In this document: in pieces, positions 3,346 to 51,600 of the stretch
How the letters are laid out: the number at the start of each line of letters is the position of its first letter
Position numbering within the stretch: position 1 is the first letter of the stretch
Source: an uncultured Candidatus Saccharibacteria bacterium
Lineage (GTDB): Bacteria; Patescibacteriota; Minisyncoccia; Phycocordibacterales; UBA6899
Direction: 5' to 3'
Assembly: GCA_964469335.1 (NCBI GenBank)
Contig: CAYXYK010000004.1
Span: 101,362-165,361, forward strand
Length of the DNA stretch: 64,000 nucleotides
The notes under the pieces: model-generated
Seen by the model: the letters and a program-made list of their open reading frames with translations, nothing else
Told to the model about the DNA's origin: nothing
Databases searched by the model: none
Made by a program: the position numbers and the translations under genes

Positions 3346-3348
3346 CAA

Positions 3349-3378
3349 AAAAAGAACCCCGAAGATCGGGGTTCTTAC
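3349..3378. terminator. bidirectional Rho-independent terminator
   Basis: The hairpin aaaaaGAACCCCGAagatCGGGGTTCttacc lies between convergent genes. Confidence 0.55.
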
Positions 3379-3930: not shown

Positions 3931-4094
3931 GCTGTTCCTTTCAAGGTTCATAGATCTGTATCGATCATAGCTCCATCAAGAATATCTGTATGAAAATATA
4001 TACGTATATGTAGTGAATAGCTGGTATGATACCGAAATACTATGAAAAATAAAGTAAAACGTGTAAAATATATTTGTATTAAATTCATACAAAT

Positions 4095-4829: not shown

Positions 4830-4838
4830 TTCTCCTCG

Positions 4839-22145: not shown

Positions 22146-22146
22146 G

Positions 22147-31746: not shown

Positions 31747-33261
31747 GTGAGTCCGTGCGCGCGCGACCATAGTATGCTGAAATCCTTCACGAGAATAGAT
31801 TTGCCCAAGTTCCTTCTCGGAGCGGTTTCGATTTTTTTCATACCGACTTTTGCGCTCACACAGACAGGAGCATCACTTTCTATCTCTCCGGACAGCGGGA
31901 CGTTCGCGGCGGGGAAGACATTCACCGTCAATATCGTCATCGATTCTGCTGATGGGTTCAATACCGGCAACGCGACGCTCAACTACGACCCTGCGGTACT
32001 CTCTGCGACCGGCGTCTCGAAAGGTAGTTCCGCTTTCTCCCTCTGGGCGGTCGAGCCTTCATTCGACAACAGTAAAGGTACGGTCAGTTTCGAAGGTGGG
32101 AATACCTCACCTCTCACCGGCAAGAAGACCATCCTTTCCGTCAGCTTCAGGGGCCTCACTGAAGGAAAGACTGACCTTTCGTTCTCGGCAGGTTCCGTGC
32201 TTGCGGCGGATGGAAAGGGTACCGATATTCTCGGTGCAAAGAACGGTGCCTCTTTCACGATAGGAGCAAAAGAGCTTGCAGTTGAGCCGCCTCCCGCACC
32301 TCCTGCAGCGCCGACAGACACTGGTGGAGGAGGGGGCGTGAAGCCCGACGCTCCTATCGTTTCTTCTCCGACACACTCCGACGAGAGTCTGTACTACAAT
32401 GCGAAGAAAGCAAAGTTCACTTGGGATCTTCCTCCGGATGTCACGGTCGTGCGACTCGCGCTCGACACAAGCGGAAGTACTACTCCAACGACGAACTATG
32501 ATCCCGCGATCAGCGAAAAGGAATTCGATCAACTCACCGACGGAGTGATGTATTTTCATTTGCGATACAAGAACGACGGCGGATGGGGTCCGGTCACACA
32601 CAGGAAGATCATGGTCGATCGTACTCCGCCTCCGGCGTTCGAGGTTGAAGCGACCACGGATGCGTCATCGTCGGATGTCATTCTTAAGTTCTCTGCCACA
32701 GATACTCTTTCGGGTATAGATCATTACGAACTGACCGTAGACGGCGGGACTCCGGTGAAGGCCTCACTTGCCGAACTTCTTTCGGGAGAATACAACTTGA
32801 CCGGTCAAGAATTGGGTGACCACAAACTTAAGGTCGCAGCTTTTGATAAAGCGGGGAATGCGGGTGAAGGAGCAGCAAATTTCAAGATCACCTACGACGC
32901 AGAGGCGGCAAAAAAAGGACTCGACGAGGGAGAGGCGAAGCCCACTGATTGGCGACTGATCATCGATATCGTTCTGGTCGCGTTCATCGCATTCCTGCTC
33001 GGGTATCTGTGGTATGAGCGCGGTGCGTTCCTACATGAGAAATATGTCTCGAAACGCGAAGCGGACGAAGTGCGCGACAATCTTGGCAATATCTTTGCTG
33101 CTCTCCGTGAAGAGGTGGGAGAGCAGGTCACCTATCTTTTCGACAAGCCCAATCCCTCTGCACTCAACAGGGAAGTGCTTGGGAACATCAATGAAGCGAT
33201 TGATCTCTCGGAAGAGCTACTCTCCAAAGAAGTTGAGGACGTTCGTAAGTTACTTTCGTAA
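31747..33261 (+). CDS. membrane-anchored cohesin-domain protein (scaffoldin-like)
   Basis: A signal/TM precedes a cohesin-like domain (LSISPDSGTFAAGKTFTVNIVIDSADGFNTGNATLNYDPAVL ... FSLWAVEP ... GTVSFEGG). A Pro-rich linker, Ig/Fn-like domains, a C-terminal TM (LIIDIVLVAFIAFLLGYLWY) and a cytoplasmic acidic tail follow. Confidence 0.7.
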   Translation: MSPCARDHSMLKSFTRIDLPKFLLGAVSIFFIPTFALTQTGASLSISPDSGTFAAGKTFTVNIVIDSADGFNTGNATLNYDPAVLSATGVSKGSSAFSLWAVEPSFDNSKGTVSFEGGNTSPLTGKKTILSVSFRGLTEGKTDLSFSAGSVLAADGKGTDILGAKNGASFTIGAKELAVEPPPAPPAAPTDTGGGGGVKPDAPIVSSPTHSDESLYYNAKKAKFTWDLPPDVTVVRLALDTSGSTTPTTNYDPAISEKEFDQLTDGVMYFHLRYKNDGGWGPVTHRKIMVDRTPPPAFEVEATTDASSSDVILKFSATDTLSGIDHYELTVDGGTPVKASLAELLSGEYNLTGQELGDHKLKVAAFDKAGNAGEGAANFKITYDAEAAKKGLDEGEAKPTDWRLIIDIVLVAFIAFLLGYLWYERGAFLHEKYVSKREADEVRDNLGNIFAALREEVGEQVTYLFDKPNPSALNREVLGNINEAIDLSEELLSKEVEDVRKLLS

Positions 33262-33367: not shown

Positions 33368-33645
33368 AACTTGAATAAGTATTTAAAATTTTCCAATCAA
33401 AATTTGAGGGAAAAATCAATAATTTTTTGCACATTTTTTCTGAAAAAACGCTTAGATGGTAAGAATTTTTTCAAAGTGCAGTGAGATGCAAAAAAATCTG
33501 TGGACAACTCGTGTTGCTTCCACGAAAGCCCTCAGTTGAGCCATGGTTTAAGAGCGATTTTAGCCCTATTTGAAGCCGTATTTTGGCTTTTTTCTGGTAA
33601 AATTAAGCCTAGCCAATCCTTTTTGGAGGAGGGGTGTGTATTTTC

Positions 33646-36600
33646 ATGTACCGACGCCTACGAACCTATGCACGAAGAGTGATTCACGCGTTTTCAACGC
33701 GCACGAGAGTCGCCTCAACCCTACTTTTTCTGGTACTCAGCGGATGGCTTGTATCGCAGTTCGTTCTTGCCCAGAAGGAATTGAATGTCTACATCTTTCC
33801 GTCCGCAGTGACGAGTGATGGATGGAACGACGATATTCAATCGCTCAGCCAGGATCTTTCTCCTGACGCAACGCTTGCGAATTTCACTACACTCAATTCA
33901 GCATCCGTTTCGTTCGGGTCTCTGGGCGCGGCTCCTGTCGCGACCTCATCGGTTCCCGGCGTGCCCACACCATCAGAAAGCGATCTGAGTACTTCGCTTG
34001 AGAACGTACTTCCTACTACCCCGTCTGTGGTGCCTACTGCACTCCCACTCAACGGCAACGATGAGCCGATCCTCGTTCCTGCAGTGGGAGAGGCGACCAC
34101 ATCTTCGGTGATCAGTCTTCCTAATCCCTTCGTTCCTGTCACGCCGCTACCTGAGAGCATCACTGCCTCATCTGCACAATCACTAAATCTATTGCCGGAT
34201 ATTCTGACCGATTTATTTGGCGTGAAGAAAGTGCTTGCACAAGAGCATGCTTCAGCGACGCCCAATGTGAGTGTGTCCGAGACTACGACCCCTGTTGTGA
34301 TGAATCAGGAAGGAAATGCCAGTGCCACTTTGCCAACTGTACCGGAACCTTACGTCCCCACCCCGATGTCGGCTGATCCCTATTCTGTCGCTTCATGTAC
34401 GACACTGGGACTCACATGCCACCTCATGACCTTCGTCGGGTTCGGGCTCGGAGATGCCTTCTCATCCCACCCGCTCACTTCAGCGACACTTGAGCTTTCT
34501 GTTGCGGGTCGTTCAGAGCTTTCCGCCCTGCAGCATGACCGATTGTTGGTTCGTGTATTCCATGCAGGTCGTTGGGAATTCCTTGGCGAAACTGAGATCA
34601 AGGGTGAACTTTCGAATGCAAAACGCGGAGGCTACCTTTCGTATGATCTTCCTGAGATCGCTGATTGGAAAGACCTTTCGGACATGAAGGTTGTTGTTGA
34701 GTATGCGCGCGAAGGTGAAGGGAATGCATCGCTCCTCATCGACGGTGTGTGGGTGAATGCGAAATACGGTACTGATAGCATCTCCGCCGATGCGACACCT
34801 GAAGAGATCGCGCTCTCGCAGTCGAACGTACGCAGTACTTTGTTCGCAAAGGACGCAGAAGATCGAAAAGTGAGACGTGACATCCTTGATACTCCGGAAG
34901 GAAGGGAGATCGCGCTTATGCATGCGGATGAGCACGACGATGCGGACATCATCATCAAGACCGACAAAGAGATATATCGCACCCTCGGGAATACCTCTGC
35001 ATACTTCAATGTCACCAACCAAAGCGACAAGGAACAGGTCGTTCGGCTGCAGTTCCATTTTCCTGAGGGTGGCGGCGGAGTTGCATCATTGTCCCGCCTT
35101 TCTCGCTCAGTCCCGTACAAAGTAAGTAATCTGAAATACGATTCCGTCGGTTACTTCTGTGCAAGCGGATGGCAGAGCGCCTCGTCGACCGACACGAAAG
35201 GATTTACTTGTGTTGATATGAATGAGACCCGATCTTGTGATGCGCTCAACGACGATAAGACGAACTGTATCGTCAGTGGTGCGCGAGTCGGGCTCACAGA
35301 AGACATCGAATATCGTGACGGATGGGTTCCTAGCGCTCTTCTACAGGGCTCGTTCCGTGATGATGCGGGCATCTTCGCCAAGGCGATCGACCTCATTCTC
35401 GGTAAGTTGCCTTCGGGAGCGATCCCTCCTTCTGAACAGCCGGTCTCGTACATCGAGAATTCGGTACTTCTTCTCCCGGGGCAGACTGCATACCTTCGCG
35501 CAGATCTTGCGCTCCCACTCAATGGACGCGGGGATTTCTATATCGAGGGAGCAACGGAGAGCGGTGCGTACGGTCTCGTTCATGCCGCATGGGATGGTTC
35601 ATGGAACTACCGTGTGCCCGTTGATATCGATAACGAGAAAGTCGAGACTGAAGACTCGTATGCCGTCCCGGTGTCGCTCGACTCGCTTCCGCTCGCATTC
35701 TGGGACAGGGTCAACGCGGACGGCTCGGATGTCCGTTTCGTTGACGAGACCGGGACGCAGGAACTCCCGTACTGGCTCTCTTCGTGGAAATACGAAGACC
35801 GAAAAGCATTCGCCTGGGTGCGAATCCCGAAGACGAGCAATTCGACCACTACGCGCATCTATGTGTACTACGGTGATCATAGTGCCGCTTCCCGCTCGTC
35901 GCTCACTGCTCCGTTCCGTACCGATAGGCTCACTTCGCGCGCGGTGATCGCAGGCTCGAGTCAGCATGATATGACACTACTCGCAATCGCGCTCGATGAA
36001 GATACGCACATCCAAGCGGGGGAGCATGAGCCAGTCACTCTCAAGAAGGGAGAGACTGCACTCTTTGGGTCGCTCGCACCGGGCGATGTAGTCCAAGCTG
36101 ATGGGCCGATATCTCTTTCGCTTGAGTCGAGCGGTTCAGGTGCGACGGTCGTTCCATACGGATATACTGGCGGCAATTTCGTTATTCCGGGAATCGGCGG
36201 TGAGCGCATCCTTTCGATGACTGCCGTCGAAGATGGTGAGGTGCACACGGAGCTCAAGCGAGGGAGTGCTACTTCGACAACTCTCGATCCGATTGCAGGG
36301 ACGATCGTTTCGGATACGGTGGATCTCGACAGTTCGATCCGTGTCGATGCGGCAAGTGATGTCATGGCACTCCTTTCTGCGGGGGATGGCACGCGCCTTA
36401 CCCCGCTTTATCCGTCGACCGATGAACCGCTTTATGGTTTCATGCTCGGAAAGACAGTGGTTGGATTCGGAACAGACGGATCGACGATGAAGGCGGTGTG
36501 TGCCGGAGGTGCGGTCAAATCCGCCGACGGACGTAGAGACGGCATGATGACCGTCCTCGATCATTGTCAAAGTTCCGTTCTTCCTTCGCTCGCCGACGCA

Positions 36601-39600
36601 GTCCGTATCAGTGAGTTGGCGAATCCCGCGTCGGTGTTGTCCCTCGGAGGAGAGATGTTTACGAGTTTCATTCCGAAAAGCGAGTTCGCTTCTTCATACG
36701 TGCTCGCCGAAGATGCCGGGACTCTCGCATTCATTTGTGCTCCCGAGGACGGTACCATCGATATCGGTGTTTTCGACGCAGGTGGCGCGTTCACTGCATC
36801 CACCACTTGTGAAGCGCGCGGTGCACGACCGGGCAAAGCACTGATCGAAAGCGCGAACGGTTTCCATGCCGGATCGATCGTCCGCTCTCTCGATGCGACT
36901 TCTACAGTGTTCATGGCAGCATATCAGGCGCTCGGACGTTCACTTGCTTCAGGTGAAGTTGCACCACTCACCACACTTTACGGAGCTCCCCAGTTACGAT
37001 CGCATTCACCGAACCACCCGAGAGTGACCACTGGCGAAGAGGAATTCGTGATTCCCGGCGAACACCGCAAACTCGATCTGGACGAGGAGGGGAAGGAACG
37101 TGTACATGTCGATAAGTTGCTCACTACTAAGCGTGAGTTCTCTGTACACGAACAGCCGGGATTCCAGTTCCAGTACACTCCGCAATCGAATTCGGTGGTC
37201 CAAGGAGTGAGAGGAGCGTTCGGTGTCGCGCAATTCTCGGTCACGAAGGTTTCCCTTCGTCATGCGCAGATCGGAGAACTGGAAGTCGAATATGACATCG
37301 GATATGGAGATGACAATATCTGGTCGCTTTCACTCAAGAATGTCGATGGTCATCTCCGCCCCGGGAAGTACACGCTCCATGTGGAGATCGAAGAAGGAGG
37401 AAGCACATATGTCGATGAGTATGATTTCTACTGGGGAGTACTTGCGATCAATTACAACAAATCGATGTTCACTCCCGGAGAGACAGCCAACATCTCGATC
37501 GGGGCACTCTCGGATAACGGCAATACGATCTGTGATGCGATACTGAAACTTTGGGTCACTCCTCCTGGAGGCACGGAGATCGAACTCCCTGTGTCGGCAT
37601 CCGGACTCTGCGACGGAAACAATGTTGTCGATGTGCCTGATTATTCATCCAGCTATTCCTTCTCCAGCGAGAATGCAACAGGTACGTACAAGGTGAAGTT
37701 AGTGCGCTTCGACAGAGAAGGAAATATCGCGAGCCAAGTGACAGACACCATCTCAGTCAAAGATTCAGTCCCTTTGAGTATCGAACGCGAAGGACCGACA
37801 CGCATCTATCCTGTAGCACATTATCCGATGAAGATCCGTGTTACCGCAAATGAGGATTTCAAGGGTAATATCATCGAACGCCTCCCCGGTGATTTCGTCG
37901 TGATTGATCGAGGAAGTGCGGAGCTCGCATGGGGAGACAGTGAGCATAGCTACATGACCGCAACATGGCCGGTCGACATGAAGAAGGGTGCTGTCGTGAC
38001 TTTTGCATACGAGTTTGATGCACCCGATCGCTCTCCGTATCTTTATGAACTCGGACCAGCAAGCACAGACGGAGACGTCGTATTTTCTGAAGCGCGCAAA
38101 TGGCAGATCGCTTCGGACGCAGCCGGGAAAATGATGATCTATTGGGACCGTACCTATACTCCCTCTGGGTGGACATGCATCTCATGTCTTCCATCCGATG
38201 TGTTCTACAATCGTTTTGCGATGGGGTCATCGACATATGGCGGGTTCGGTGGGACGGCGACCCACACACCGACAGCTTCCGCGGCAGTCGCGTCATTCGG
38301 AGGTACGGGTGTCGGACCAAACACAACCAATAACACCAACAACGCTCCTCTCGGACACACCCATACATTGACTCCACAGATTTCTGGAGTATCGAACCTT
38401 CCCACCTACAGACAGCTCGCAGTCCTGCAATCCAATAGCGCAGGCGACCCGGCTTCGATCCCCGGAGGAGCGATCGTCATGTTCGATATTGCATCATCGT
38501 CGCTACCGTCCGGTTGGTATCGCTACACTCCACTCGATGGCCGTTATGTGAGAGGACAATCAACGAGCACGACAGGTGTGACTGGAGGAGCGAATACCCA
38601 CTCGCATACTGCGACAGGCACACTTTCTGTAGCGATCGGGTCAGGACTTCGCGAACAGAACGGAGTGGTGAACGGTGCAACTGACGTGAATCACACCCAT
38701 ACCCTTTCCGCGACGAACACCGATGTGCTTTCGAATGAGCCGCCGTATGTTGAAGTGCTGTTTGCGCAGCAACCGGCGACGTCGACACCGGTCAATTATA
38801 TGCTCACTATGTGGGAAAATACCCCGCCGAGCGGATGGACGACACTCTCAGATCCGGGAGGTCCGCTCGAAGGGAAGTTTCTCAAGGCATCTACGACCTA
38901 CGGACTGACCGGTGGTTCGGCGACACATGCCCACGCGGATATATTCGGGGCGACCACATCGGTGCAAAGTCTTCTGAATAACTACACGGCAAACGTATCG
39001 AATGCACAGGCTCCTGCAGCACATACGCATACTGTTGACATCACTGGTTTTTCCACCGATGACCATCGACCTCCATATGTCGAGGTGATCTTCGCGAAAC
39101 GCCTCTCGGGGGTCACATTGTGGACACAGCAGCAATATCGCTGGTACTCAAACACGAACGCGATCACTCCGGTCGACCCATGGCCACCGACAGGAGGTGA
39201 TCTCGGAGAAGATTCGGCGATCGACGGCGGCTCACTTGCTGTTCGGGTCGGTGATGTGCTCAGACTTCGCATGTCGATACTCGCGATGAATTCGACCTCA
39301 ACTGTCGGAAGTCAGGCGTTCAAGCTTCAGTATGCCGACTCGCTTGATTGTCCGAGTGCGCTCAATTGGGACGATGTCGCTCCGATGTCTTCAACGACCG
39401 CAGAGTGGCGAGGGTACAATAATGGCGCTGTGGCCGATCGCGCGACGCTTCCGTCCACACTGCTCACGCTTTCGAATATCGCAGAAAGTTATACCGAAGA
39501 GAATAACTCTACCAGTACCTCCGTCGAGATCGGAGTCGGGCAGGCAGGTGAGTGGGATTGGGTGCTGCAGTCGAATGTTCCGCTTCCGGGTACCAATTAT

Positions 39601-42600
39601 TGTTTCCGCATGGTGAAGTCTGACGGAACTCCTCTCGACACAAATGACATCTATCCGGAAGCGCTCACCAACTTTGCTCCGAACGCAACAGTGCTCGCTT
39701 CACCGTTCGATAACGAGAAGATTTCTTCCACTACCCCATATTTAGTGTTCGCTTCGGCTGATCCTGAAGTGAATGACCTCGACTATGAAGTTCAGGTTTC
39801 CGCCACCAGTGATTTCGCTTCATCGATCGTTGACGTGGATTCGACCGTGAACCCTGAGCTTTTCGACAACGTACCGAATCCGACCAATAAAGCTCCGTTC
39901 AGTTCTGGAGATCAGATCCGTTATCGTGTAAGTCCTGCGCTGACGAACGGGAATACCTATTGGTGGAGGGTTCGCGCGAAGGATCTCTCTGGGTCGAATG
40001 CGTGGAGCTCCTGGTCGGCTGGAAGATCGTTCACTGTTGATACTGCGGTTACTATTTCCACATGGTTCCAGACCACTCGCGATCAGTTCGAAACGGACGG
40101 ACAGACGAACGTTGACGCTACGTCGACCGTAGCGAATGATGTCATGTTGATTGCTGGTCAGACAAGCGGCGTGCTCTATTCACCACAGATTGATCTCGAT
40201 CAGGCGACTCTTGGGACCGCCTGGGGCACACTATCGTGGAATGACTCTGAGGTCGTCGGGGACATCAAGTATCATGTGCAATACCTCGATGCGACTTCGA
40301 CGTGGGTAGATATTCCTGACTCAGGACTCTCAGGTAACTCTGCAGGATTCGATACCTCACCGATCTCACTGCTCTCAGTGGATCCCAATACCTATACTTC
40401 GATACGTCTTGCGGCGAACTTCACGAGTGTCGGAGGTTCCCCCCGTCTCTTCGATTGGACCCTTTCGTGGGGTTACAAAGTGACGACTCCGGTCATCAGC
40501 ACTCCGTTCGACAACGCCAAGGTCTCAACCACGACACCGTCATTCGACTTCGTTTCGACCGACCCGAACGGTGACCCGCTGACGTACGAGATCTCATGGT
40601 CTACAGACACCGCATTCTCGGCGTCGACCACTCGAACCTCAGATTTCAATCTCGGATTCCAGAATCTCACCACCCCGAGCGACACTGACCCGTATACGTC
40701 CGGCGAGAACATCCGTTTTACCGTGAGAGCGAGTGATGCGCTCACCAATGGGACAACCTATTACTACCGAGTCCGCGCGAAGGACCCGACTGGAGGGAAT
40801 GATTGGTCGTTCTGGTCTGACACACGCTCGCTTACCGTGGACACTTCGATCACCGTGGCAACCTGGTTCCAGAGCATGACCGGGCAGTTCAACACAGACA
40901 CACTCACCAGTATGTACAACTATGGCCTCGGTTCTTCTACTGTTTCGACATCAACCACCGAGGCGATGATCGCATACGGAGAAGGCACTGTGCAGACTCC
41001 CCGTTACCGCATCTGGGGAGGGACCGCATGGGGGAGCGAGTTTTCTGCCCTCTCCATCAATTCTAGTGTGCAGTGGGTCGTGCTCAAGGCATCCCCGGTC
41101 ATCGGTGAGTATATGATGGGAACGCTCGGGTCTGATCGTGATATCAATTTTCAGATATACAATAACGGTACTTGGGGGAACATGAATGAGATCACGACGA
41201 ATGCGCCGCCTGTGACTCGTCGGTCCCTCGACATCGCCTACGAGACGATTTCCGGACGCGCTCTTGCTGTCGCATGTGACGGTGATGCCGATCCATCATA
41301 CGCGATCTGGGACGGAACGAATTGGGGAAGTACGCAAACGATAGACCTTGCAAGCGCGAACAATTGTGAATGGATAAGACTTGCGTCGAATCCGGTCACC
41401 AACGAGATCATCCTCCTCGAGAGAAATACCGGTAATCTCTATCAGGCGGCGGTATGGAATGCCACATCTTCTACTTGGGGCACGACGACGAATATGGGAT
41501 CTATGTCCGAGATCGCACATGAGGGCATGGCACTTGAATATGAGGAAAGTGGAGACACTGCACTTGCGATCACGTCGAACACCACGAACTCCAGTTTTGT
41601 TTATAAGGCATACAAAGCAGGGGCATGGTCAGCATCGACGACAGTGACGCTCGGTGATGACTTCGAATGGGGAACGCTCGTTCGTGATCGTGGCACTGAC
41701 CGTATGGCACTCTGCTATGTCGATGAAGACGGTGATATCGGAATGAAACGCTGGGATGGGGGAGGATGGGTCGCGACCACTACCGTCGTCGAACTCGAGA
41801 CAGCGCCGACATTGACCGAGAATGAAGGACGCCCAGTCGACTGTGCATTCGAGAATACCACAGGAAGGGATACTTACATCATGACCTCCTACAGTGACCT
41901 CGTTGGAACCCGCTATCAGACATGGAACAACACCGCATGGGGCCCAGAAGCAAGCATTATGCCGGTGATCCGCAACTTCACTACTCAGTTGAGACGCACG
42001 GATGATAATAAGATCTTGGGTGTGTGGTTCGATTATCTCAATGGTGACTATTACACATCATCATGGAACGGCACGACATGGTCAGCGACCACCACCATCG
42101 AAACCAGTGCAAGTGTCACTGCTACGCCGTATGGTGAGCCGTTCATGATCGCACCCAAACTTCCGGCAACCAGAGGAACCATCGTCAGTTCGCCGATCGA
42201 CTACGATGATGGCGCATCACCCGCTTGGGATCAAGTGCTCTGGTCTAAGACCACCCCGGGACTAAGTACCTTCAAGGTGCAGGTCGAGTACTATGACAGC
42301 GCATCGTCATCATGGAAGCTCATCCCGGACACGGATCTCTCCGGTAACTCGAGCGGCACTTCGACCTCACCCATCAGTATCCGCAATCTTGATACAAGTA
42401 CATATAATCAGATCAGACTCGTTGGTAATGCGACCTGTGTGCTCGGTAATTGTCCTGTACTCAATGATTGGACAGTGAAATGGTCCGCGGGGCTCAACAT
42501 CTCCGGTACCGCGAAGCAGCAAGACCTCACGACGAATGTCACGAGCGGAACGGTCGCAGTCGCAGTCAACGGTGTGCTTCAGGCAGGGAAGACCGGGACC

Positions 42601-45600
42601 ATCTCAGCGGGGACCTGGACGATCCCGAATGTCACTTTCTTCCCAGGAAGTACGCTCACGGTATTCGTCTCTGGCGCGGCGACCTCTGCACGTGCCGTCG
42701 CGGTCGCAGTCTATGACGGCCCTGGAGATTTCGGAGGTATGTCCCTCAATGAACACTGGCTCACCGTCGGCTCCGCATCAGGAACTCTCGCGACGACCAC
42801 ACTCACCAATCTCAGTAAGTATGACAACTCGGTTGCGGGGGGTACGGACGTCTTCTACGATGTCACCGCCGGTGGAGACTATAACCACTGCGCGATCGCG
42901 GTTCCTGCAGGCTGCTATGATTCAAGTCTATACCTACTTGCTGAAAACATATTCAGTCCGTCGACCTCGACCGCAAAGACGCTCACCACCTACAACATGC
43001 GTATCGCCGGGAGCATGTACCTGGATGCGAACACGCTTAAGGTCGGAGCATCGTGGCGAAATCTTGGCGGCTTCACTCCAAATACCGGAACGGTCATGTT
43101 CAATGCGACTACTTCGACGCGCACGATCGATAATACCGGTGCGGCAACTTCGACATTCGGTAATGTGACATTCGGCGAGGTGGCGACGCTCGCAACGTGG
43201 ACTTTCTCGACCCCATTCGTGGCGACAGGAACAGTAGCGATGAACTTCGGTACGACCTCTCCCGGGGCACAGTCCATGACACTTCTCGGCGACCTTACGA
43301 TCGGTGCTTCGGGAATTTTCGCGAAAGGAAGTGCGACGACGACCTTCAGTGGAACACAGTCAAAGACGTGGACCGACAATACTGCGGCGAAGCAGGATCT
43401 CGGTAATGTTGCGATCAGCGGCACCGCGAAGACGGTCACACTCGCCTCATCGGTCAAAGCGACAAATATCAATATTGTAGCCGGGAATACCCTCAATGCA
43501 GGAGGTGCGAATACGTTTTCAGTGCTCGGTTTCTGGGATAATGCAGGGACGCTCACACCACAGACTGGTACGGTCGCATTCATCGCGACATCGTCGTCGA
43601 AGACGATCAACCAAGCATCATCGAATTTCTACAACGCGACATTCAACGGAGTCGGTGGTGCTTGGCGATGGCTCAATACCAATGCGACGACGACGAATGA
43701 CCTCACGATCGCGACCGGCACGCTCACCCTTCCAGGAGGAACACTCGAGGTCGGCGGCTCATTCGCGAATACTGGAGGCACATTCGTCAACAATTCAGGG
43801 ATCACCAAACTGACCTCTACTGCAGGAGGGAAGACGATCCAGACCGGAACCTCGACGTTCAATGATCTGGTGTTCAGCGGTTCCGGCGGCGCTTGGAGTT
43901 TCGTAGATGTGAATGCGACCACATCTGGGACACTGACAATACTTGCAGGAACTCCGACTTTCCCATCCGGAGTACTCGAAGTTGGAAATAATTTCATCAA
44001 CTCCGGAGGCACATTCGTCGCGAATGGCGGAACGCTCAAACTTACATCCTCGCTCAATTCACGTACGATCACATTCGGCGGTTCTTCGCCAGCGAACCTC
44101 ACTGTGCAGAACGCGGGCGTGTTCACTGTCACCGACACGAATGCAACAACGACAGGAAATGTGAATTTCGTCGCTGGCACCACCACGCTTCCCGCCGCGA
44201 ATTTCGTCATCGGAGGCTCGTTCACAAACACGGGCAGGTTCACCGCAGGTACGAACCTTGTGACGTTCAATGCAGCGTCCGGTGCGAAGACGATTAACCC
44301 CGGTGCCTCATCATTCGCATCAGTACTCTTCAGCGGTGCCGGCACGTTCACGGTCTCCGCAAATGCAACAACGACGAATGATCTCACGATTTTCTCAGTA
44401 GGCGGCTTCACACAGTCGAGCGGAACGACGCTTGCGGTAGGAGGACAATTCACCAATCAGGTCGGCGGTGCTACCACGACCTGGTCCGGCTCTACTCTCG
44501 CGCTCAACTCGGGAACTGCATACAGTATCAATACCAAGACGACGGGTGGAGATCTCTATGGCACACTGCGACTCGCTGCCAATACGCAGATCCGCTCTTG
44601 GAATTCATCCTCGACAGTCTATGTGCTCGGCACTTCCGCAAGTCTCTATTCGCAGAACCATAATAGTGTTTCCGGAGAAGTGGACATTTTCGGTACATAC
44701 ACTCGTACATCCGGTTCGGACTACTGGAGCTATGCGACGGACTTTGATGGCACAGTCCTCGGATCTCCCCGTCAGGCAAACGTACGTTTCGATTCGGGTG
44801 CGACAGCAAGTTTCGCTGCCGGTACGACACTAGAAATCCTCGGCTCAGCAACTGCATCAACTTCGATCGACAGAAAGTCGAGCGGTAACTATGGGGTCAC
44901 CCTTTCTTCGTCGACGATCAACGCGCAGTATTATCAGTTCCGCAACATGAATGCGTCCGGGCTCACCCTGAATTCCTCTACGACGGTCACCTCGCTCGCG
45001 AACGGTGATTTCACGATCGACCTGAATGGCGCGTCAGGAATGACGGTGGCATCTTCGACCATCGACACCAATCCTGGATTGCAGCTCTTCAATGTGAGAT
45101 TCGCGACTTCGACAGGGATCTCAGCTGGATTCAACGTGGCAGAAACTGGAGCCGCGACGTCTTTTTGGAGATTCAAGAATCACTATGGGAACTACGCTGG
45201 TGAAGCTTACGATAGCGACCCTGGTCCATCATCAGGGAACCCCGGATATGTTCGATGGGACGACAGTAATTTCGTCATTTCGATTTCTGGCACAGTCTAT
45301 TCCGATGCAGGATCGACCCCGATGGGGGCACCGACCTGTGATGGAGTGACCAATACTGTGCGCGTGAAGGTCTCGGGCCAAGGTAATTATGCCGCACCAT
45401 GCGCCAATGGCAGTGGTGTGTACACCGTTTCCGGAGTGACATTCACCGGTGATAATGTGATGACGGTGTATCTCGACACCAATGGTGGTGCACAAGCGGT
45501 CGCGGTCACCAAGTCTGCTTCGGCGGACCTCACTGGAATCGATCTCTATCAACATCGTGTCATTCTTCGCCACGAAGATACGTTCCCGATGTCGATCGCT

Positions 45601-48600
45601 GACATGAAAGCATACGACAAGACCGGTGACACGGACATCCCGTTCATCGCGGCAACTTCGTCCGTGCCATACACACTCACTACTGATCCGGATACGCAAC
45701 TCTGGGTTTGGAATTCCAAGACCTTCATCCCGGGAGGGAATATCACGCTGAACTCAGGAGGTTCGGGGCAGACCTACGACGGATCACTCATCTTGAGTGC
45801 GAACTCAGTGTTCACCGCACAGGGGACAGAAACTCACTCGATCGGAGGCGGTTTCAGCGCGAATGCAGGTGCCGTGTTCACTGCCGCGAATTCGACCTTC
45901 AATTTCACTGCAACGACAACGGGGAAGAGCATCATTGGTGTGGCACCGCTCACGTTCTGGAGGATGAGTTTCAGCGGTTCGGGTGGTGGGTGGGTGATCA
46001 ATCAGGCGCTCACGGTCGGTGAGAATTTCCTCCCGAATGCAGGAACAGTTTCCGGAACAAGCAACGTTACCGTGAGTGGAACGACAGTTTCAGGAGCCGG
46101 TTCGATCGCGATGACCGGCGGGACTTTCACTCTTTCGAACGGTGGCACATTCGGAGGGAATAGTGATTGGTCGTTCAACAATCTCACCTTTGGCAACGGA
46201 ACTTTGGCAACAACAACGAAGACCGGGTCGTCTACTGTCACCGTCGCAAGCGTCCTTACTGATGCCGCCAATCAGACCTTCCAGGCCGGAACATCGACCA
46301 CCTGGGTGCTCACTGGTGGAGGAACCCCGCTTGTTCTCTCAGGTACGTTTTCCGTTCAGAATGCAACGTTCCGCTATGCAGGCACGAGTGCGACGAACGT
46401 GACTCCCGCCACATATGCGCAGCTCGATTTCGGAGCGAGCGGAGTCTCTTCCCCGGTCTATACCTTGCTATCGGGAACTTTCAATGTCGGTGGGGCATGG
46501 AATGTCGGAGTGGTTGCGACGAATACCGTCACGGTGAATGCGAACACCAACGATCCGACACTTACGCTATCAGGCAACGTGAACGTTGTCGCTTCATCTA
46601 CCTTCGTACTATCCAATACTGGCTCACTCACTGCACGAAGGAATTGGACGAATCTCGGAACGACGACTGCGTCCGGAGGAACCGTGACTTTCGATGCGAC
46701 GACGACAGGCTTCACCATCTCAGCGGGCGCATCTCCGTTCGCAAATGTCTCGTTCAATAATTCTAATGGTGGTTGGACTGTTGTAGGGAACGCTACCGCG
46801 ACGGGGAACTTCACACTCTCCGCACTCGCATCGTTCACACTCTCGCCGAATGCGACACTTGAAGTCGACGGTGTCTTTACGAACGGTATCGGAGGGGGCG
46901 CGACCACATGGACCAATTCGACGCTATACCTCAATGCGAATGCGGCAGAAACGATCAACACCAAAACGACGGGCGCCGATACATATGGAACATTGCTCAC
47001 TGGCGGCACAACGCAAGTGCGCGTGTGGAATTCATCAGCAGCAACTACAACGACCAACAATTCGAGCAGCGTCTATTCGATGAATCATGCGAATGTCTCA
47101 GGGGCGCTCAATATCTGGGGCACATACAATCACTCAAGCGGCACCGACTACTGGGATTACGCGACTGACTTCGATGGTGTGTCGATTGCGTCAACTTCAC
47201 GTGTCGTGAACGTACGTGTCGCTTCGAGTTCTTCTCTTAATTTCTCAGGCGGACAACTTGAAGTACTTGGTGCATCCGGTGCGACGACGACGATTGACGT
47301 ACTGACAACCGGCGGATATTCATGGAACATCACCGGCGGAGTGGTCAACATGCAGTATTACAAGATCCGAGGTATCGACCAGAACGGACTTTCGATCTCG
47401 GGCTCACCAACGGTCTCAGGGCTCTCCAATGGAGATTTCCTGCTTGCGGTGAACGGCGCTACCATGATGACAATCGCGGGCGGAACTATCGACGCGAACC
47501 CCCTAAAGACCTTCTTTGGAATGAGTTTTGCTACTTCAAGCGGCATCACGTCAGGGTACAACATTACTGCGACCGGTGTGTCCGGCTCAGTGTGGACCAT
47601 AAGCGGCCTATCGGGGAACTATGCCGGTGAAGCGCGAGACAACGATCCGGGTGGTGACCCAGGATACATTCGTTGGGACGATTCCGCCGCACAGATCTCG
47701 GTCTCAGGAAATGTCTACAGTGACGAAGGTCTAACACCAATAGGGGGACCCGTGTGTGATGGAGTGACACAGAATGTGCGCCTCAAGGTTCAAGGTGCGG
47801 GTTCGTATACTTCGGCATGTAATGCAGGAACCGGTGCATTCTCGATCTCGAACATCATCTATAATCCGAAGGATACACTGACACTCTATCTTGCATCGAC
47901 GACCGGTGTGCGAGCGGTCAATATTGCCTACGATCCCGCGACCAACATCACGAGCATGAATCTTTACCAGAACCGTATCATCCTCAGACATGAGCAGGGC
48001 AGTGCGGTCGGCATCGCTCAGATGGCGGCATATGACAACAACAAAGACAGTGCGATCCCGTTCATTGCGACGACGACCGTTGCGACCTCGACGACCGTAT
48101 TCGCGGGCACAGGACTCATTGTCTGGAATTCGAAGGTTTTCGCACCTGGCGGAAATGTCACGCTCCATGCGAATGCATCAGGAAATAGCTGGGATGGATC
48201 GGTGCACCTGTTGGCGACATCGACATGGAGTTCATCAGGGACAGAGTCGTATACAATCGGAGGATCGTTCGCAGCCGACACTTCCGCGTCAGTGGCACCC
48301 GCGAACTCGACATTTAATTTCACTGCAACAACAACAGGAAAGTCTGTTTCCGCTTCGAATACTCTCACTTTCTACAACCTCACTTTCAGTGGCGCCGGTG
48401 GGGCATGGAGTATCCCCGGAGTCTCGACAACGTCGAATGATCTCACTATCTCCGGAGGCACCCTCACTCTTCCCACGGGGACACTCTTCGTCGGAGGAAG
48501 TTGGAACAATTCAGGCGGGGCATTCGTGGCAAGCGGCGGCACCGTAGAGTTCATTGCGACGGCGAGTGGGAAGAACATTCGCACAGGTACTTCAGCGTTT

Positions 48601-51600
48601 TGGAATACCACGTTCTCGGGTACGGGTGGCGCATGGACATATCTCGACACGAATTCTACTACTTCAGGTACCACGACAGTGACGGCAGGGACACTGACGC
48701 TTCCTTCGGGCGTATATGCGGAAGGGAAGAGCTTTGACGTACGCTCCGGGTCGGTAAGTGCGAACGGTGGTACACTCAAGATGATATCGACGTCGACCGG
48801 ACAGACGGTCAGGCTTTCCGGTTCATCACTCGCGAACCTCTTGGTCGCCGCGACAGGCACATTCCAATTCCTCGACAGTTATGCGACGACGACAGGAGAT
48901 GTTTCGCTCACGTTCGGAACGACGACGTTCCCTTACGCGGCACTCACGATTGGCGGTTCGTTCTCCAATTCGGCGGTATTCAGTGCGGGAACCTCGACAC
49001 TGGTGATGAACGGCAGCGTTGCGGGGAAGACGATCTCACTCGGGAATTCATCGCCGTACAATATGACGATAAACGGTGCTTCGGGAGGATTCACCGTTTC
49101 GGGAAACGCGACAACGAGCAATAATTTCAGTCTCATTGCAGCGAGTACATATACACAGAGCTCAGGTACTACGCTTGCGGTCGGTGGCGTCTTCACGAAT
49201 TCGGTCGGTGGCGCTCCGACCACATGGTCAGGAACGACGCTCTCGCTTTACGGCACATCGTCGAATTACAGTATCAACAGCAAGTCGGCGGGAGGTGATG
49301 CATATAACATCATCCGCCTCGCGGCGAATACCAATATCCGCATGTGGAACTCGTCCGTTTCGACCACTCAGCTAGACCCCGCCTCGAGCATCTATTCACA
49401 GAACAATGCGGCGTCCGCCGGCTCACTCTATATTTACGGTAACTATACTCGTTCTTCGGGGACCGACTACTGGAGCTATGCGACTGATTTTGATGGAACC
49501 GCACTCGGCGGCTCATCACGGCAGGCGAATGTTCGCTTCGATGCGAATGCTACTGCGACATTCCAGAACGGTGCGACACTTTCGATGCAAGGCAGCGCGA
49601 CCGCCTCGACGTCAGTTGATCGTATCTCGAGCGGTAGTTATGGCATCACACTCGATTCATCGTGGTGGACCGCACAGTACTATCAGTTCCGCAACATGAA
49701 TTCGACCGGGCTCAATCTCACAGGCACAACAACGATCTCGATGAACAACGGTGATTTCTCGCTCGATGTGAATGGGGGAAGATCGATCACCGTATCATCC
49801 ACCACCATAGATCAGAATGCCTCACAGCAGTTCTTCTACGTGAAGTTCGCGACTTCGAGCGGCATCACCTCAGGGTACAACGTACTTCGAACGGGAACCA
49901 CGACGAACTCGTTCACCTTCAATTCCGAGTATGGAAACTTTGCAGGGGAAGCATTCGACAATGATGGTGCTGATGGTTGTGGTTCTATCAGGTGGTCAGA
50001 TAGTGCATGCCTTATCTCTGATCAGCGCGGATATCGATGGAGAAATGATGATGGCGCAGAAGGTGCACCTTCGTCCGAGTGGTACAACCAGAGCTGGACG
50101 AAGCGCGAGCGTATCCGCATCGTCAATAATGCAACCACGTCTTACACCAATGAGCAGGTAAAACTTGATATTCCTTACGATTCGGATATGAAGAGTAATT
50201 TTGATGATATCCGTTTCACTGACTCATCGGGTACCACCAGTATCCCGTTTTGGACCGAAAGTTACCTCACTTCTGCGACCGCTACCGTATGGGTGAAAGT
50301 GCCGTCACTCCCGGGGTCCGGAACTGCTGATATCTTCATGTACTTCGGTAATTCCGGTGCGTCTTATGCTGGCTCGGGCACCTCGACATTCACGTTCTTC
50401 GATGATTTCGAAGACGGTAATCTGAGTGAATACACTGGCAACACTACGCTGTTCTCCAATGATGCGACATTCAATTATGAACGCACATACGGTCTTGCTG
50501 CATCGGCAGGAAATACCGGAGCTCAGAATACCAGCGGTATCGGTCAAGCATCGGCAGGAGTCGGGCGTGATACAACCTTCCGTTTCAATCAGTATATCGA
50601 CATGACAAGTGGCGGCTCGGACGAGCCCTGCTTCTTGTTCGCGATCCAGCCCCCTATCACGGGACATCAGAACTACGGTGTCTGCCTCTCTCCGTTCGGT
50701 GCTGATCATCTCGTGGTCGCGAAGAACGTCTCATGGAACGGACGTGCGGCAAGTGACGGCTCGACACTGCTCGTATCGAAAGCGGTCACATATACGACGG
50801 GTTGGTATCAGGTTTCCGTTGATTGGATCGCAACGAACAATCAGATCAATGTGAATGTGTACGACAATACTGGATCGCTATTTGCGACCGCGACGACGAC
50901 CGATTCTACTTGGACCTCAGGTGGTGTCGGCTTCACATTCTGGGGAATGCACGGAGGATGGGATATTCCGTTCGCACGTACATATAACTACCTCACACCG
51001 TCGTATGCACTCTTCACCAAGCAAGCAGATTCCGGTGCAACATGGGCAGCTGCAGAGAACACATATCTTCCGAATTATGTGCAGAATCAGAATGTCCGCC
51101 TGCGCTTCTCGGTACGCAATTCATCACTCGCACCTCTGTCGGAGAACTTCCGCTTACAATATGCTGCAAAGCTCGCATCTCCGAACTGTGAGTCAGTACC
51201 GACGGGGAACTATAGTGATGTACCGACCACCTCGGGAGGATGCGGAAGCGCCGCGGCATGTATGACCTCATCAAGCCAGTTCACCAAATCATCTTCGACG
51301 CAGCTCTTGACCTTCCCGAACGGCTACACGTTCACCCAGGCACAGATCCTCGAGGATCCGAACAATCAGACCGACAACATCTCTCTTTTGGCGAATGCGT
51401 TCACTGAAGTCGAGTACAACATCCAGATGACGAACAATTCGTCACTCGACAGATATTGTTTCCGAACCACGAATGCCGGCACACCGCTCGACAACTATAC
51501 CCGCGTTGCTGAGATTCAAGTGCTGCATCCTCCGACACTCTCGAATTTTAGCTTCAATCAGAACTCGGATATTGCGCTCACCGAAGGAACGACCACCTCA

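What the first reader, a model, noticed from the sequence alone, without database searches (positions are those of the whole stretch)
38160..39105. Phage tail-collar-like HxH-motif domains embedded in the giant protein
Two consecutive segments have the tail-collar pattern P.GW ... G(R/K)(Y/F) ... T.GGA.TH.HT ... NHTHTLS / HTHTVDI followed by PPYVEV. This fold is normally found in phage tail fibres and microcystin-dependent MdpB-like proteins. Its presence inside a chromosomal adhesin suggests phage-derived receptor-binding modules were recruited for host or partner-cell binding.
Basis: partly seen in the sequence, partly recalled or inferred. Interest (0 to 1): 0.55.

Follow-up and report, generated by a model that had tools for sequence, protein, structure and literature searches.

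The report
Fused three-part phage-fibre-tip domain
A 330-residue stretch of a 6224-residue surface protein from an ultra-small (CPR) bacterium consists of three tandem copies of the histidine-rich tip unit that phage tail fibres normally build from three separate chains, so it probably folds as a single-chain, metal-stapled copy of a phage receptor-binding tip, and no current domain database describes it.

Summary
The motifs are real, and there are three units, not two. Residues 1501-1829 of the giant ORF (window 38134-39120) hold three homologous ~105-111-aa units. Each has an IPxGxIxMF strand, PSGW, G(R/K)(Y/F), a first HxH, a hypervariable loop, a second HxH, and a PPYxEVxFA strand.

Pfam Collar (PF07484) does not match the window sequence, even at E<=1. 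The link to tail fibres is transitive but solid:
- The units match phage-type units at hhalign 99.5-99.7%.
- 19 of 59 homologues hit PF07484.
- The phage-unit profile aligns to the T4 gp12 collar (93.8%, E 1.7e-7) with a 24-residue deletion in the unit.
- The family profile hits three solved homotrimeric fibres: Pvc13, Pa223 gp60 and the JUB59 receptor-binding protein.

Units occur almost only in threes or sixes. The twelve His positions are 83-99% conserved. The three-unit AlphaFold model is confident (pTM 0.81), whereas one unit alone gives 0.47. My best reading is a single-chain pseudo-trimer with two His-lined metal sites and an asymmetric variable tip.

The family is large (3353 clusters at 50% identity) and sits in giant proteins of CPR bacteria and DPANN archaea. 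Binding function and a phage origin are inferred, not shown. I rate it a new variant of a known kind, of moderate interest.

The parts
33634..52308 (+). Giant ORF (6224 aa) that carries the module. It has an N-terminal basic stretch plus a hydrophobic segment (aa 24-46, a signal anchor), two DUF2341 domains, Ig/FN3-like domains and ~800-aa internal mega-repeats.
   Evidence: A full-length orthologue, P0076 (6229 aa), is 52% identical.
38134..39120 (+). Three-unit HxH module, aa 1501-1829. It behaves as one evolutionary and folding unit.
   Evidence: The module is conserved as a block in 161 modules from 147 proteins. AF2 gives pLDDT 84.4 and pTM 0.81. The profile search finds 3353 clusters.
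38134..38445 (+). Unit 1 (aa 1501-1604): MIYWD strand, PSGW 1510, H-T-P 1544-46 (degenerate first HxH), HTH 1575-77, PTYRQLAVLQ closing strand.
38446..38778 (+). Unit 2 (aa 1605-1715): IPGGAIVMFD, PSGW 1625, LDGRYVRG, HSH 1656-58, HTH 1687-89, PPYVEVLFA.
38779..39111 (+). Unit 3 (aa 1716-1826): PVNYMLTMWE, PSGW 1732, LEGKFLKA, HAH 1765-67, HTH 1797-99, PPYVEVIFA.
38263..38271 (+). Layer-A histidine motif of unit 1, here H-T-P (the family has H at 86% and 83% of these two positions).
38599..38607 (+). Layer-A HxH of unit 2 (H1656, H1658; 96% and 94% conserved).
38926..38934 (+). Layer-A HxH of unit 3 (H1765, H1767; 92% and 88% conserved).
38356..38364 (+). Layer-B HxH of unit 1 (H1575, H1577; 99% and 96% conserved).
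38692..38700 (+). Layer-B HxH of unit 2 (H1687, H1689; 98% and 98% conserved).
39022..39030 (+). Layer-B HxH of unit 3 (H1797, H1799; 99% and 99% conserved).
38275..38352 (+). Hypervariable, low-confidence loop of unit 1 (aa 1548-1573) between the two His motifs; part of the putative distal tip.
   Evidence: Entropy 3.1-3.4 bits and pLDDT 50-62.
38611..38688 (+). Hypervariable loop of unit 2 (aa 1660-1685).
38938..39018 (+). Hypervariable loop of unit 3 (aa 1769-1795).

Best explanation
Residues 1501-1829 form one domain made of three tandem, anciently diverged copies of the protomer unit of a phage tail-fibre tip.

Each unit begins with a shortened tail-collar element: an IPxGxIxMF strand, then PxGW, then G(R/K)(F/Y). 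It lacks the ~24-residue middle of the Pfam Collar domain. The chain then runs out through a first HxH, turns in a hypervariable ~26-residue loop, returns through a second HxH, and closes with a PPYxEVxFA strand.

In phage fibres such as T4 gp12 and gp37, SU10 and the JUB59 receptor-binding protein, three identical chains bring their HxH pairs together on the three-fold axis, where six histidines hold an Fe2+ or Zn2+ ion. Here I infer that the three units of one chain do the same job. The result would be a single-chain pseudo-trimer with two stacked metal sites. Layer B has six His. Layer A has five His plus Pro in this protein. The three non-identical variable loops would form an asymmetric distal tip.

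The domain is displayed on a membrane-anchored 6224-aa surface protein of a CPR (Paceibacterota-like) bacterium. Its most likely role is a rigid recognition tip that binds a surface structure of a partner or host cell.

Shown: the three-fold repeat, the homology to tail-fibre tips, the rule of threes, His conservation, variable loops, and the surface-protein context. Inferred: the pseudo-trimer geometry, metal binding, and ligand binding.
For: Repeat structure: the three units are mutually homologous (hhalign 99.6-99.9%; BLASTP E 1e-6 to 1e-15).

Homology chain:
- Window-type units versus phage-type units: 99.5-99.7%, E 1e-22 to 1e-25, over the whole unit.
- Phage-type unit versus T4 gp12 339-406 (PF07484 at 344-400): 93.8%, E 1.7e-7, with a 24-aa gap.
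- Window-type units versus the Collar-positive part of Pvc13: ~90%, P ~1e-6.
- Family profile versus PDB: 9qgo 1.6e-9, 9nxk 9.5e-8, 6ov6 8e-6. Each entry holds 3 chains, and one unit aligns to one chain.
- 19 of 59 homologues match PF07484. Phage-type members match tail fibre and tail collar fibre PHROGs and lie in tail gene clusters.

Pseudo-trimer:
- Units occur in arrays of 3 (203 arrays) or 6 (5 arrays). Only 16 arrays have other counts, and 10 of these touch a protein end.
- pTM is 0.81 for three units and 0.47 for one unit.
- Linkers between units are only ~8-10 aa.
- The BFVD Foldseek matches to Pas29 and Pas28, which also have three units, span the whole module (E 3e-15, TMq 0.59).

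Metal sites:
- The 12 His positions are 83-99% conserved over 161 modules.
- Layer B is 6/6 His in 142 of 161 modules and never loses more than one.
- HxH/Fe2+ coordination in trimeric fibres is described in PMC9509320 and PMC11705849.
- A layer with exactly five of six His occurs in 67 of 161 modules. A homotrimer cannot have this, because one substitution removes three His. A fused chain can.

Binding tip: the loops between the two HxH motifs are the most variable and least confident parts of the module (Spearman rho -0.77, p 1e-7).

Surface context: an N-terminal hydrophobic anchor, Ig/FN3/DUF2341 domains, and neighbouring cohesin, dockerin and WxL-interacting proteins, with no phage genes nearby.
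Against: - No model coordinates could be inspected, so pseudo-three-fold packing and convergence of the histidines were not measured.
- Foldseek of the three-unit model against PDB chains gives nothing (best E 0.68). This is expected if the solved equivalents are three intertwined chains, but it is still a negative result.
- The single-unit model's hits to 6ov6 and 9nxk are not significant on their own (E 0.07-0.08).
- A profile built only from the 11 closest window-type modules finds no PDB sequence. The window sequence itself hits no Pfam or PHROG family. The link to solved fibres therefore runs through intermediates.
- Loss of His in one unit does not correlate with loss in the others (|r| <= 0.14).
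- In phage fibres the HxH region is largely a structural scaffold, so a binding role for this module is not implied by homology alone.
Confidence: 0.6

Rival explanations
1. The module is the same fused fibre-tip fold, but its job is purely structural. It would be a metal-stapled, protease- and shear-resistant joint or spacer in a long surface fibre, with recognition carried out by other domains of the 6224-aa protein.
For: In T4 gp37, SU10 and JUB59 the HxH ions are described as stabilising the fibre. The module sits at aa 1501-1829, far from either end of the protein. Some relatives carry two modules in series. The giant protein has many other candidate binding domains, including DUF2341, Ig-like domains and mega-repeats.
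Against: The loops at the hairpin turn of each unit are hypervariable in sequence and length while the scaffold is strongly conserved. That is the signature of a diversifying contact surface rather than a spacer. Stand-alone versions of the module occur as small secreted proteins of 325-573 aa, where it is the main domain.
Confidence: 0.25
2. Each unit is an independent trimerisation knot. Three copies of the giant protein would associate in parallel, and each of the three units would pair with its counterparts in the other two chains, as in ordinary homotrimeric tail fibres.
For: Every solved relative is a homotrimer. A single unit alone still reaches mean pLDDT 77.7.
Against: An inter-chain design gives no reason for units to come in threes, yet 208 of 224 arrays hold 3 or 6 units. 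pTM rises from 0.47 for one unit to 0.81 for three in one chain. A layer with exactly 5 of 6 His occurs in 67 of 161 modules. In a homotrimer each layer would be built from a single unit position, so any substitution would remove three His and destroy the site. The three units have diverged to 32-39% identity with unit-specific features.
Confidence: 0.1
3. The resemblance to tail-collar domains is a chance or convergent motif pattern (PxGW, HxH) in low-complexity Thr/Ser/Gly-rich sequence, with no common ancestry with phage fibres.
For: There is no PF07484, PHROG, NCBIfam or PDB hit for the window sequence itself. The sequence is rich in T, S, G and H, which can inflate scores.
Against: Independent significant links point to the same relationship: phmmer to phage-type proteins, Pfam hits in 19 of 59 homologues, the profile against three solved fibres, and hhalign to the gp12 collar in the correct register at the start of the unit. 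The single-unit model's best PDB matches are the same fibres that the sequence profile found. All seven hits at E <= 10 are phage tail or baseplate proteins.
Confidence: 0.05

Closest known systems
Phage Tail Collar domain (Pfam PF07484; T4 gp12 residues 344-400)
   Same: The unit starts with the same strand and motif. gp12 reads IPVGAIMMWAADSLPSDAW, and window unit 2 reads IPGGAIVMFDIASSSLPSGW. The unit also keeps the PD(L/M)RG-x-F-x-RG element as LDGRYVRG and LEGKFLKA. As in gp12, the chain returns to close the domain with a C-terminal strand.
   Different: The ~24 residues between GW..C.G and PDxRG are absent, which is about 40% of the 57-position model. The window sequence scores below any reportable threshold. 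The relatives tested individually match mainly model positions 1-23. The domain is present three times in one chain rather than once per chain.
HxH metal-binding tips of homotrimeric tail fibres: T4 gp37 needle (2XGF), T4 gp12 head (1OCY/1H6W), JUB59 RBP (6OV6), Pa223 gp60 (9NXK), SU10 short fibre, Photorhabdus Pvc13 (9QGO)
   Same: Paired HxH motifs lie on the outgoing and returning strands of a hairpin that follows a collar-like element. The family profile hits 9qgo, 9nxk and 6ov6. The single-unit model's best PDB matches are 6ov6 and 9nxk. The published role of HxH is octahedral Fe2+ coordination on the three-fold axis.
   Different: Those proteins are three separate identical chains. Here three diverged units are fused in one polypeptide, which allows asymmetric sites (5 His + Pro) and three different tip loops. 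Metal content was not tested here. The host protein is a cellular giant surface protein, not a virion part.
Actinoplanes phage phiAsp2 Pas28/Pas29 (PHROG 5795 'tail protein') and ~420-aa three-unit proteins of uncultivated podophage-like prophages
   Same: They have the same fused three-unit architecture. They are the best structural matches in BFVD (E 3e-15 and 2e-14, TMq 0.58-0.59). They show sequence homology over whole units. Pas29 is annotated 'possible receptor recognizing protein; contains HXHY motifs'.
   Different: Phage-type units carry four HxH per unit, against two here. Many keep the CDG..GTPD(L/M) collar signature that reaches the Pfam threshold. They are encoded in phage tail modules. 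No close relative of the window-type module was found in IMG/VR.
MdpB-like 'microcystin-dependent' / bacterial tail-collar proteins
   Same: They share only what PF07484 shares (see the first row).
   Different: They were not compared directly. The window module fails the PF07484 model that defines them.

Membership tests
Pfam PF07484 Phage Tail Collar domain | Score at or above the Pfam gathering threshold (24 bits) against the Collar HMM | tested here: not met
   No PF07484 hit at E<=1 for the 450-aa segment or for the N-terminal 3000 aa that contains it. T4 gp12 used as a positive control scores 51.9 bits.
Pfam PF07484 Phage Tail Collar domain | N-terminal strand plus P-x-x-W motif (model positions ~1-22) | tested here: met
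   hhalign places the unit starts on gp12 338-361, the start of its collar, and on the Collar-positive part of Pvc13 (90%, P 1e-6). P1510, W1513, P1625, W1628 and W1735 are 94-100% conserved.
Pfam PF07484 Phage Tail Collar domain | Central segment (C-x-G ... Y-x-x-L-F ... Y-G-G ..., model positions ~23-50) | tested here: not met
   The hhalign of the phage-type unit to gp12 opens a 24-residue gap across gp12 368-391. In the window only 5-9 residues separate GW from G(R/K)(Y/F).
Pfam PF07484 Phage Tail Collar domain | Demonstrable homology to accepted members through intermediates | tested here: met
   19 of 59 homologues hit PF07484 (best 3e-6). Window units versus phage-type units give 99.5-99.7%. 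The phage-type unit versus the gp12 collar gives 93.8%.
HxH metal-binding trimeric tail-fibre tip (gp37 / gp12 / JUB59 RBP type) | Conserved HxH pairs | tested here: met
   Six motif positions (12 His) are 83-99% conserved in 161 modules. The window has 11 of the 12, with P1546 replacing one.
HxH metal-binding trimeric tail-fibre tip (gp37 / gp12 / JUB59 RBP type) | Three-fold arrangement bringing six His together | tested here: inconclusive
HxH metal-binding trimeric tail-fibre tip (gp37 / gp12 / JUB59 RBP type) | Bound Fe2+/Zn2+ | not testable with these tools
   Needs ICP-MS, anomalous scattering or a solved structure.
HxH metal-binding trimeric tail-fibre tip (gp37 / gp12 / JUB59 RBP type) | Sequence or fold match to solved members | tested here: inconclusive
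   The profile including phage-type members hits 9qgo, 9nxk and 6ov6 (1.6e-9 to 8e-6). The window-type-only profile hits none. Foldseek of one unit gives 6ov6 and 9nxk as top hits but at E 0.07-0.08. Foldseek of three units against PDB gives none.
Phage virion tail fibre (a structural part of a phage or prophage) | Encoded in a phage tail gene cluster | tested here: not met
   Neighbours are cohesin, dockerin, WxL-interacting, FN3 and ABC-transporter genes. The ORF is a 6224-aa protein with a full-length orthologue. Module GC is within the range of the ORF.

The most novel reading that the evidence does not exclude
Fusing the tail-fibre tip into a single chain may have created a new class of asymmetric recognition domain. 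Ultra-small episymbionts (CPR bacteria and DPANN archaea) would display it on giant surface proteins to recognise their host cells. It would be exchanged between phages, bacteria and archaea. Its frequent five-His layer, found in 42% of modules and impossible in a homotrimer, would leave one metal coordination position open for a ligand.
Probability: 0.25. Interest if true: 0.75.

Novelty: new variant of a known kind. Interest (0 to 1): 0.55.

Why it matters
How CPR bacteria and DPANN archaea recognise and attach to their hosts is largely unknown. Their giant surface proteins are mostly annotated only as 'hypothetical' or 'DUF2341 domain-containing'.

This work defines a large domain family that the libraries searched do not cover: at least 3353 clusters at 50% identity, 545 of them at E<=1e-30. 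It links that family to the best-understood class of microbial recognition devices, the phage tail-fibre tips.

The single-chain architecture also matters for protein engineering. It would be a monomeric version of a trimeric receptor-binding tip, with no need for trimerisation chaperones and with three loops that can be varied independently.

The result gives concrete targets for testing host recognition: the three loops at aa 1548-1573, 1660-1685 and 1769-1795, and the twelve His positions.

Tried and rejected
Searches that found nothing:
- Pfam, PHROGs, NCBIfam, PADLOC and PDB phmmer on the window segment gave no meaningful hit.
- The profile of the 11 closest modules (A1) against PDB sequences gave no hit.
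- Foldseek of the three-unit model against PDB gave no hit better than E 0.68. I attribute this to the solved relatives being split into three chains.
- tblastn of the module and of P0052 against 50,697 GenBank phage records found only phiAsp2.
- No close relative of the window module was found in IMG/VR.
- No tRNA genes were found in the window.
- Literature searches for a single-chain or pseudo-trimeric HxH fibre tip, or for tail-collar domains in Patescibacteria giant proteins, found no such description in the held library.

- Exact-sequence look-up of window neighbours failed, probably because my translation of the GTG start as V differs from the deposited sequence.

Weak or negative analyses:
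- hhalign of window-type unit profiles against the single sequences of gp12, gp10, Pa223 gp60 and JUB59 RBP gave only weak matches (P 1e-2 to 3e-4). Where the unit start aligned (gp12, Pa223, and JUB59 with unit 1) it fell on the collar start. Only Pvc13 reached ~90%.
- The covariation test of His loss between units showed no correlation.

Ideas rejected:
- Prophage or misassembly. The ORF is continuous, the composition is uniform, and the orthologue is 52% identical end to end.
- Recent duplication. The units are only 32-39% identical.
Full report
**1. Observation**

The finding lies inside a single ORF, 33634..52308 on the + strand, encoding 6224 aa. Coordinates 38160-39105 correspond to residues 1509-1824. 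The quoted motifs are all present.

- Unit 2 has PSGW (1625), GRY, TGGANTHSHT, NHTHTLS and PPYVEV.
- Unit 3 has PSGW (1732), GKF, TGGSATHAHA, HTHTVDI and PPYVEV.
It has PSGW (1510), GGTATHTPT (H-x-P in place of H-x-H), GHTHTLT and LPTYRQLAVL.

Every H.H and every P.GW in the 6224-aa protein falls within this stretch. The three copies are 32-39% identical, with BLASTP E-values of 1.7e-6, 1.1e-9 and 1.3e-15. Profiles of each unit position, built from 161 homologous modules, match one another at 99.6-99.9% hhalign probability with E 1e-24 to 6e-32.

**2.

- hmmscan against Pfam gives no PF07484 match at E<=1 for the segment or for the whole protein. The only confident Pfam domains in the protein are two DUF2341 domains and an Ig-like domain.
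- PHROGs, NCBIfam, PADLOC and PDB phmmer are also negative for the segment.
- By Pfam's own rule, this is not a Collar-domain member.

**3. Related sequences**

phmmer against 5.8e9 proteins finds 58 relatives.

The closest are 32-62% identical over the whole 329 aa. They carry exactly the same three-unit block. One of them is a Parcubacteria protein. Some are stand-alone proteins of 325-573 aa with an N-terminal hydrophobic segment.

More distant hits, with E down to ~1e-15, are ~420-aa proteins made of three units with four HxH per unit. Evidence that these are phage tail proteins:
- 19 of the 59 sequences of the homologue alignment match PF07484, best 3e-6. In the members tested individually the match mostly covers only model positions 1-23 of 57.
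- Three of them that were tested (P0052, P0031, P0034) match PHROG 'tail protein', 'tail fiber protein' and 'tail collar fiber protein' families at 1e-9 to 1e-29.
- They lie directly downstream of an SU10-type adaptor and a ~650-aa protein, and beside an M23 peptidase and an integrase, which is a podophage-like prophage tail module.
- Close relatives occur in seven IMG/VR contigs.
- Among cultured phages, only Actinoplanes phage phiAsp2 has the architecture. Pas28 and Pas29 each carry three units. Pas29 is annotated 'possible receptor recognizing protein; contains HXHY motifs'.

A profile search of 1.84e9 representative proteins finds 3353 clusters at E<=1e-3 and 545 at E<=1e-30. Many are proteins of 2000-6800 aa. 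Named examples come from Candidatus Paceibacterota, Candidatus Woesearchaeota and an Actinomycetota MAG. They are annotated only as 'DUF2341 domain-containing' or 'hypothetical'.

**4. Link to solved tail fibres and to the T4 collar**

A profile of all 59 sequences hits three PDB sequences:
- 9qgo, the Photorhabdus PVC tail fibre, at 1.6e-9.
- 9nxk, the Pseudomonas phage Pa223 gp60 tail fibre, at 9.5e-8, covering a complete unit including its terminal PPF..V.FI strand.
- 6ov6, the receptor-binding protein of Bizionia phage JUB59, at 8e-6.

Each entry contains three copies of the chain, and one unit of the profile aligns to one chain. The SU10 paper describes the JUB59, T4 gp12 and gp37 tips as related. 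It says their His pairs may bind Fe2+ ions that stabilise the fibre (PMC9509320). PMC11705849 summarises octahedral HxH-iron coordination in gp37.

Profile-profile comparisons give these results:
- Window-type units versus phage-type units: 99.5-99.7% over ~105 columns.
- Phage-type unit versus T4 gp12 339-406: 93.8%, E 1.7e-7, with a 24-residue gap opposite gp12 368-391. Pfam places Collar at gp12 344-400.
- Window-type units directly versus the Collar-positive segment of Pvc13: ~90%, P ~1e-6.
- Window-type units versus gp12 directly: weak (P 6e-4), but in the correct register.

The missing 24 residues explain the Pfam negative. The unit keeps the first strand, PxGW and the 'DGR(Y/F)xRG' element. 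It lacks about 40% of the 57-position model.

**5. Structure**

AlphaFold2 with the 59-sequence alignment gives a confident model of the three-unit block, with mean pLDDT 84.4 and pTM 0.81. Low confidence is confined to three loops, one per unit. Fold searches gave these results:
- Foldseek against PDB chains finds nothing. This is expected if the solved equivalents are three intertwined chains, but it remains a negative result.
- Against BFVD, the best matches are Pas29 and Pas28 (E 3e-15 and 2e-14, TMq 0.58-0.59). Next come a 'Phage tail collar domain containing protein' (E 3e-3, probability 0.98), an Aeromonas phage tail fibre (E 0.026) and a gp10-C-terminal-domain protein (E 0.4).
- A model of unit 3 alone is much less well defined, with pTM 0.47. 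Its only PDB matches at E<=10 are 6ov6 (E 0.07, probability 0.80), 9nxk (E 0.08), the T4 gp10 C-terminal domain and a Klebsiella phage baseplate. None is individually significant, but the top two are the same fibres that the sequence profile found.

**6. Why a single-chain pseudo-trimer**

- *Rule of threes.* With a single-unit HMM, contiguous arrays contain 3 units in 203 cases and 6 units in 5 cases. Other counts occur 16 times, 10 of them at protein ends.
- *Joint folding.* Three units together fold confidently, whereas one unit alone does not.
- *Short linkers.* Linkers between units are only ~8-10 residues. This fits the gp12-type topology, in which both ends of a protomer lie in the collar. 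That topology is established knowledge and was not tested here.
- *Histidine conservation.* The twelve His positions are 83-99% conserved across 161 modules.
- *Layer B.* The second HxH of each unit is complete (6/6 His) in 142 of 161 modules and never loses more than one His.
- *Layer A.* The first HxH of each unit is complete in 84 modules and lacks exactly one His in 67. The loss is often H to P in unit 1 (24 modules, including this window) or in unit 3 (9 modules). A five-His layer cannot exist in a homotrimer, where one substitution removes three His. It is possible in a fused chain.
- *A negative point.* Loss of His in one unit does not correlate with loss in the others.

**7. Likely working surface**

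Column entropy is highest (3.1-3.4 bits) in the ~26-residue loop between the two HxH motifs of each unit: aa 1548-1573, 1660-1685 and 1769-1795. These are also the low-pLDDT segments (Spearman rho -0.77, p 1e-7). By analogy with gp37, where the chain runs out along the needle, forms the receptor-binding head and returns, these loops would lie together at the distal end. This analogy rests on established knowledge and is an inference here. Because the units have diverged, the tip would be asymmetric.

**8. Context**

- The protein begins with a basic stretch followed by a hydrophobic segment at aa 24-46.
- It contains DUF2341 twice, Ig/FN3-like repeats, and three ~800-aa mega-repeats that are 40-57% identical.
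- It has a full-length orthologue at 52% identity, P0076 of 6229 aa.
- Neighbouring genes encode dockerin, cohesin, WxL-interacting-like, FGE-sulfatase-like, FN3 and ABC-transporter proteins. There are no phage genes.
- Module GC (0.548) and GC3 (0.547) fall within the ORF's range of 0.537 +/- 0.016 and 0.576 +/- 0.030. There is no sign of recent acquisition.
- The nearest genome matches are a Candidatus Paceibacterota MAG (71% identity) and a Candidatus Woesearchaeota archaeon (36%). The archaeal protein shares both the module and the domain just upstream of it.

**9. Verdict**

Its formal test (PF07484) fails, because the collar is truncated.

The more informative description is a fused, three-unit, probably metal-stapled pseudo-trimeric fibre tip. 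It forms a large family that Pfam, NCBIfam and PHROGs do not detect in this sequence, found in giant surface proteins of CPR bacteria and DPANN archaea and in some phage tail proteins. The pseudo-trimer geometry, metal binding, ligand binding and a phage-to-cell origin remain inferences.

I rate it a new variant of a known kind, with interest 0.55.

Noticed in passing
L008:3-4976 (Candidatus Woesearchaeota archaeon JAFCCU010000010.1); window 37900-39120: A DPANN archaeal giant protein carries the same three-unit module (36% identity). It also shares the domain immediately upstream (…PPLITPELYEMGP…FEEARPWYLAV… versus the window's …SPYLYELGP…FSEARKWQIAS…). This implies that a multi-domain block is shared between CPR bacteria and DPANN archaea. 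P0063 (5808 aa, Woesearchaeota) is another example.
   Followed up: partly
window 38263-38271 (aa 1544-1546, H-T-P): The first HxH of unit 1 is H-x-P here and in 24 of 161 family members. Unit 3 shows the same H-to-P change in 9 members. Overall, 67 of 161 modules have exactly five of six His in this layer, while the other layer is almost always 6/6. The reason for a recurrent single open position is unexplained.
   Followed up: partly
window 43540-50020 (aa ~3300-5460 of the giant ORF): There are three ~800-aa mega-repeats: aa ~3302-4170, ~4077-4970 and ~4880-5462. They are 40-57% identical (E down to 1e-159) and have no Pfam annotation. FN3-like repeats lie at aa 2020-2199 and 2287-2468. The DUF2341 regions at aa 644-761 and 5474-5586 are also related to each other.
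   Followed up: partly
window 29191-30903 and 31747-33261 (+): Immediately upstream of the giant gene lie a 570-aa protein with a type I dockerin plus Ig-like domains and a 504-aa protein with a cohesin domain. This looks like a cohesin-dockerin pair, suggesting assembly of a surface complex in a CPR genome.
   Followed up: no
window 15607-20889 (+), 20898-23454 (+), 24009-25166 (+): A 1760-aa ORF and three following ORFs of 385-435 aa have no Pfam match at E<=1e-3. They lie in the same apparent surface-protein gene cluster.
   Followed up: no
P0059-P0079 (14 proteins); P0111 and P0146: Fourteen relatives carry two complete modules. In five arrays the two modules are contiguous, giving six units. 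P0111 and P0146 show arrays of 2 + 1 units separated by other sequence. These may be split modules with an inserted domain, or missed detections.
   Followed up: no
L001:6341-11278, L004:6487-11263: In podophage-like prophages, the ~420-aa single-chain three-unit fibre follows an SU10-type adaptor, a ~650-aa protein and a small protein with a tail-fibre-like C-terminus. In SU10 and Pa223 the trimeric fibre docks on a loop with three pseudo-three-fold tryptophans (PMC9509320; 10.1101/2025.06.11.659172). How a single-chain fibre docks is an open question.
   Followed up: no
window 39121-39400 (aa ~1830-1920): The sequence just after the module (…WTQQQYRWYSNTNAITPVDPWPP…) is conserved downstream of the module in several relatives (P0001, P0006, P0008: 'YRWYADS…DVTDP'). 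It has no Pfam match and may be a partner domain of the module.
   Followed up: no
window 37871-38377 (-): A 168-aa antisense ORF overlaps the start of the module. No evidence for it was sought. It is most likely a by-product of the composition of the long + strand ORF.
   Followed up: no
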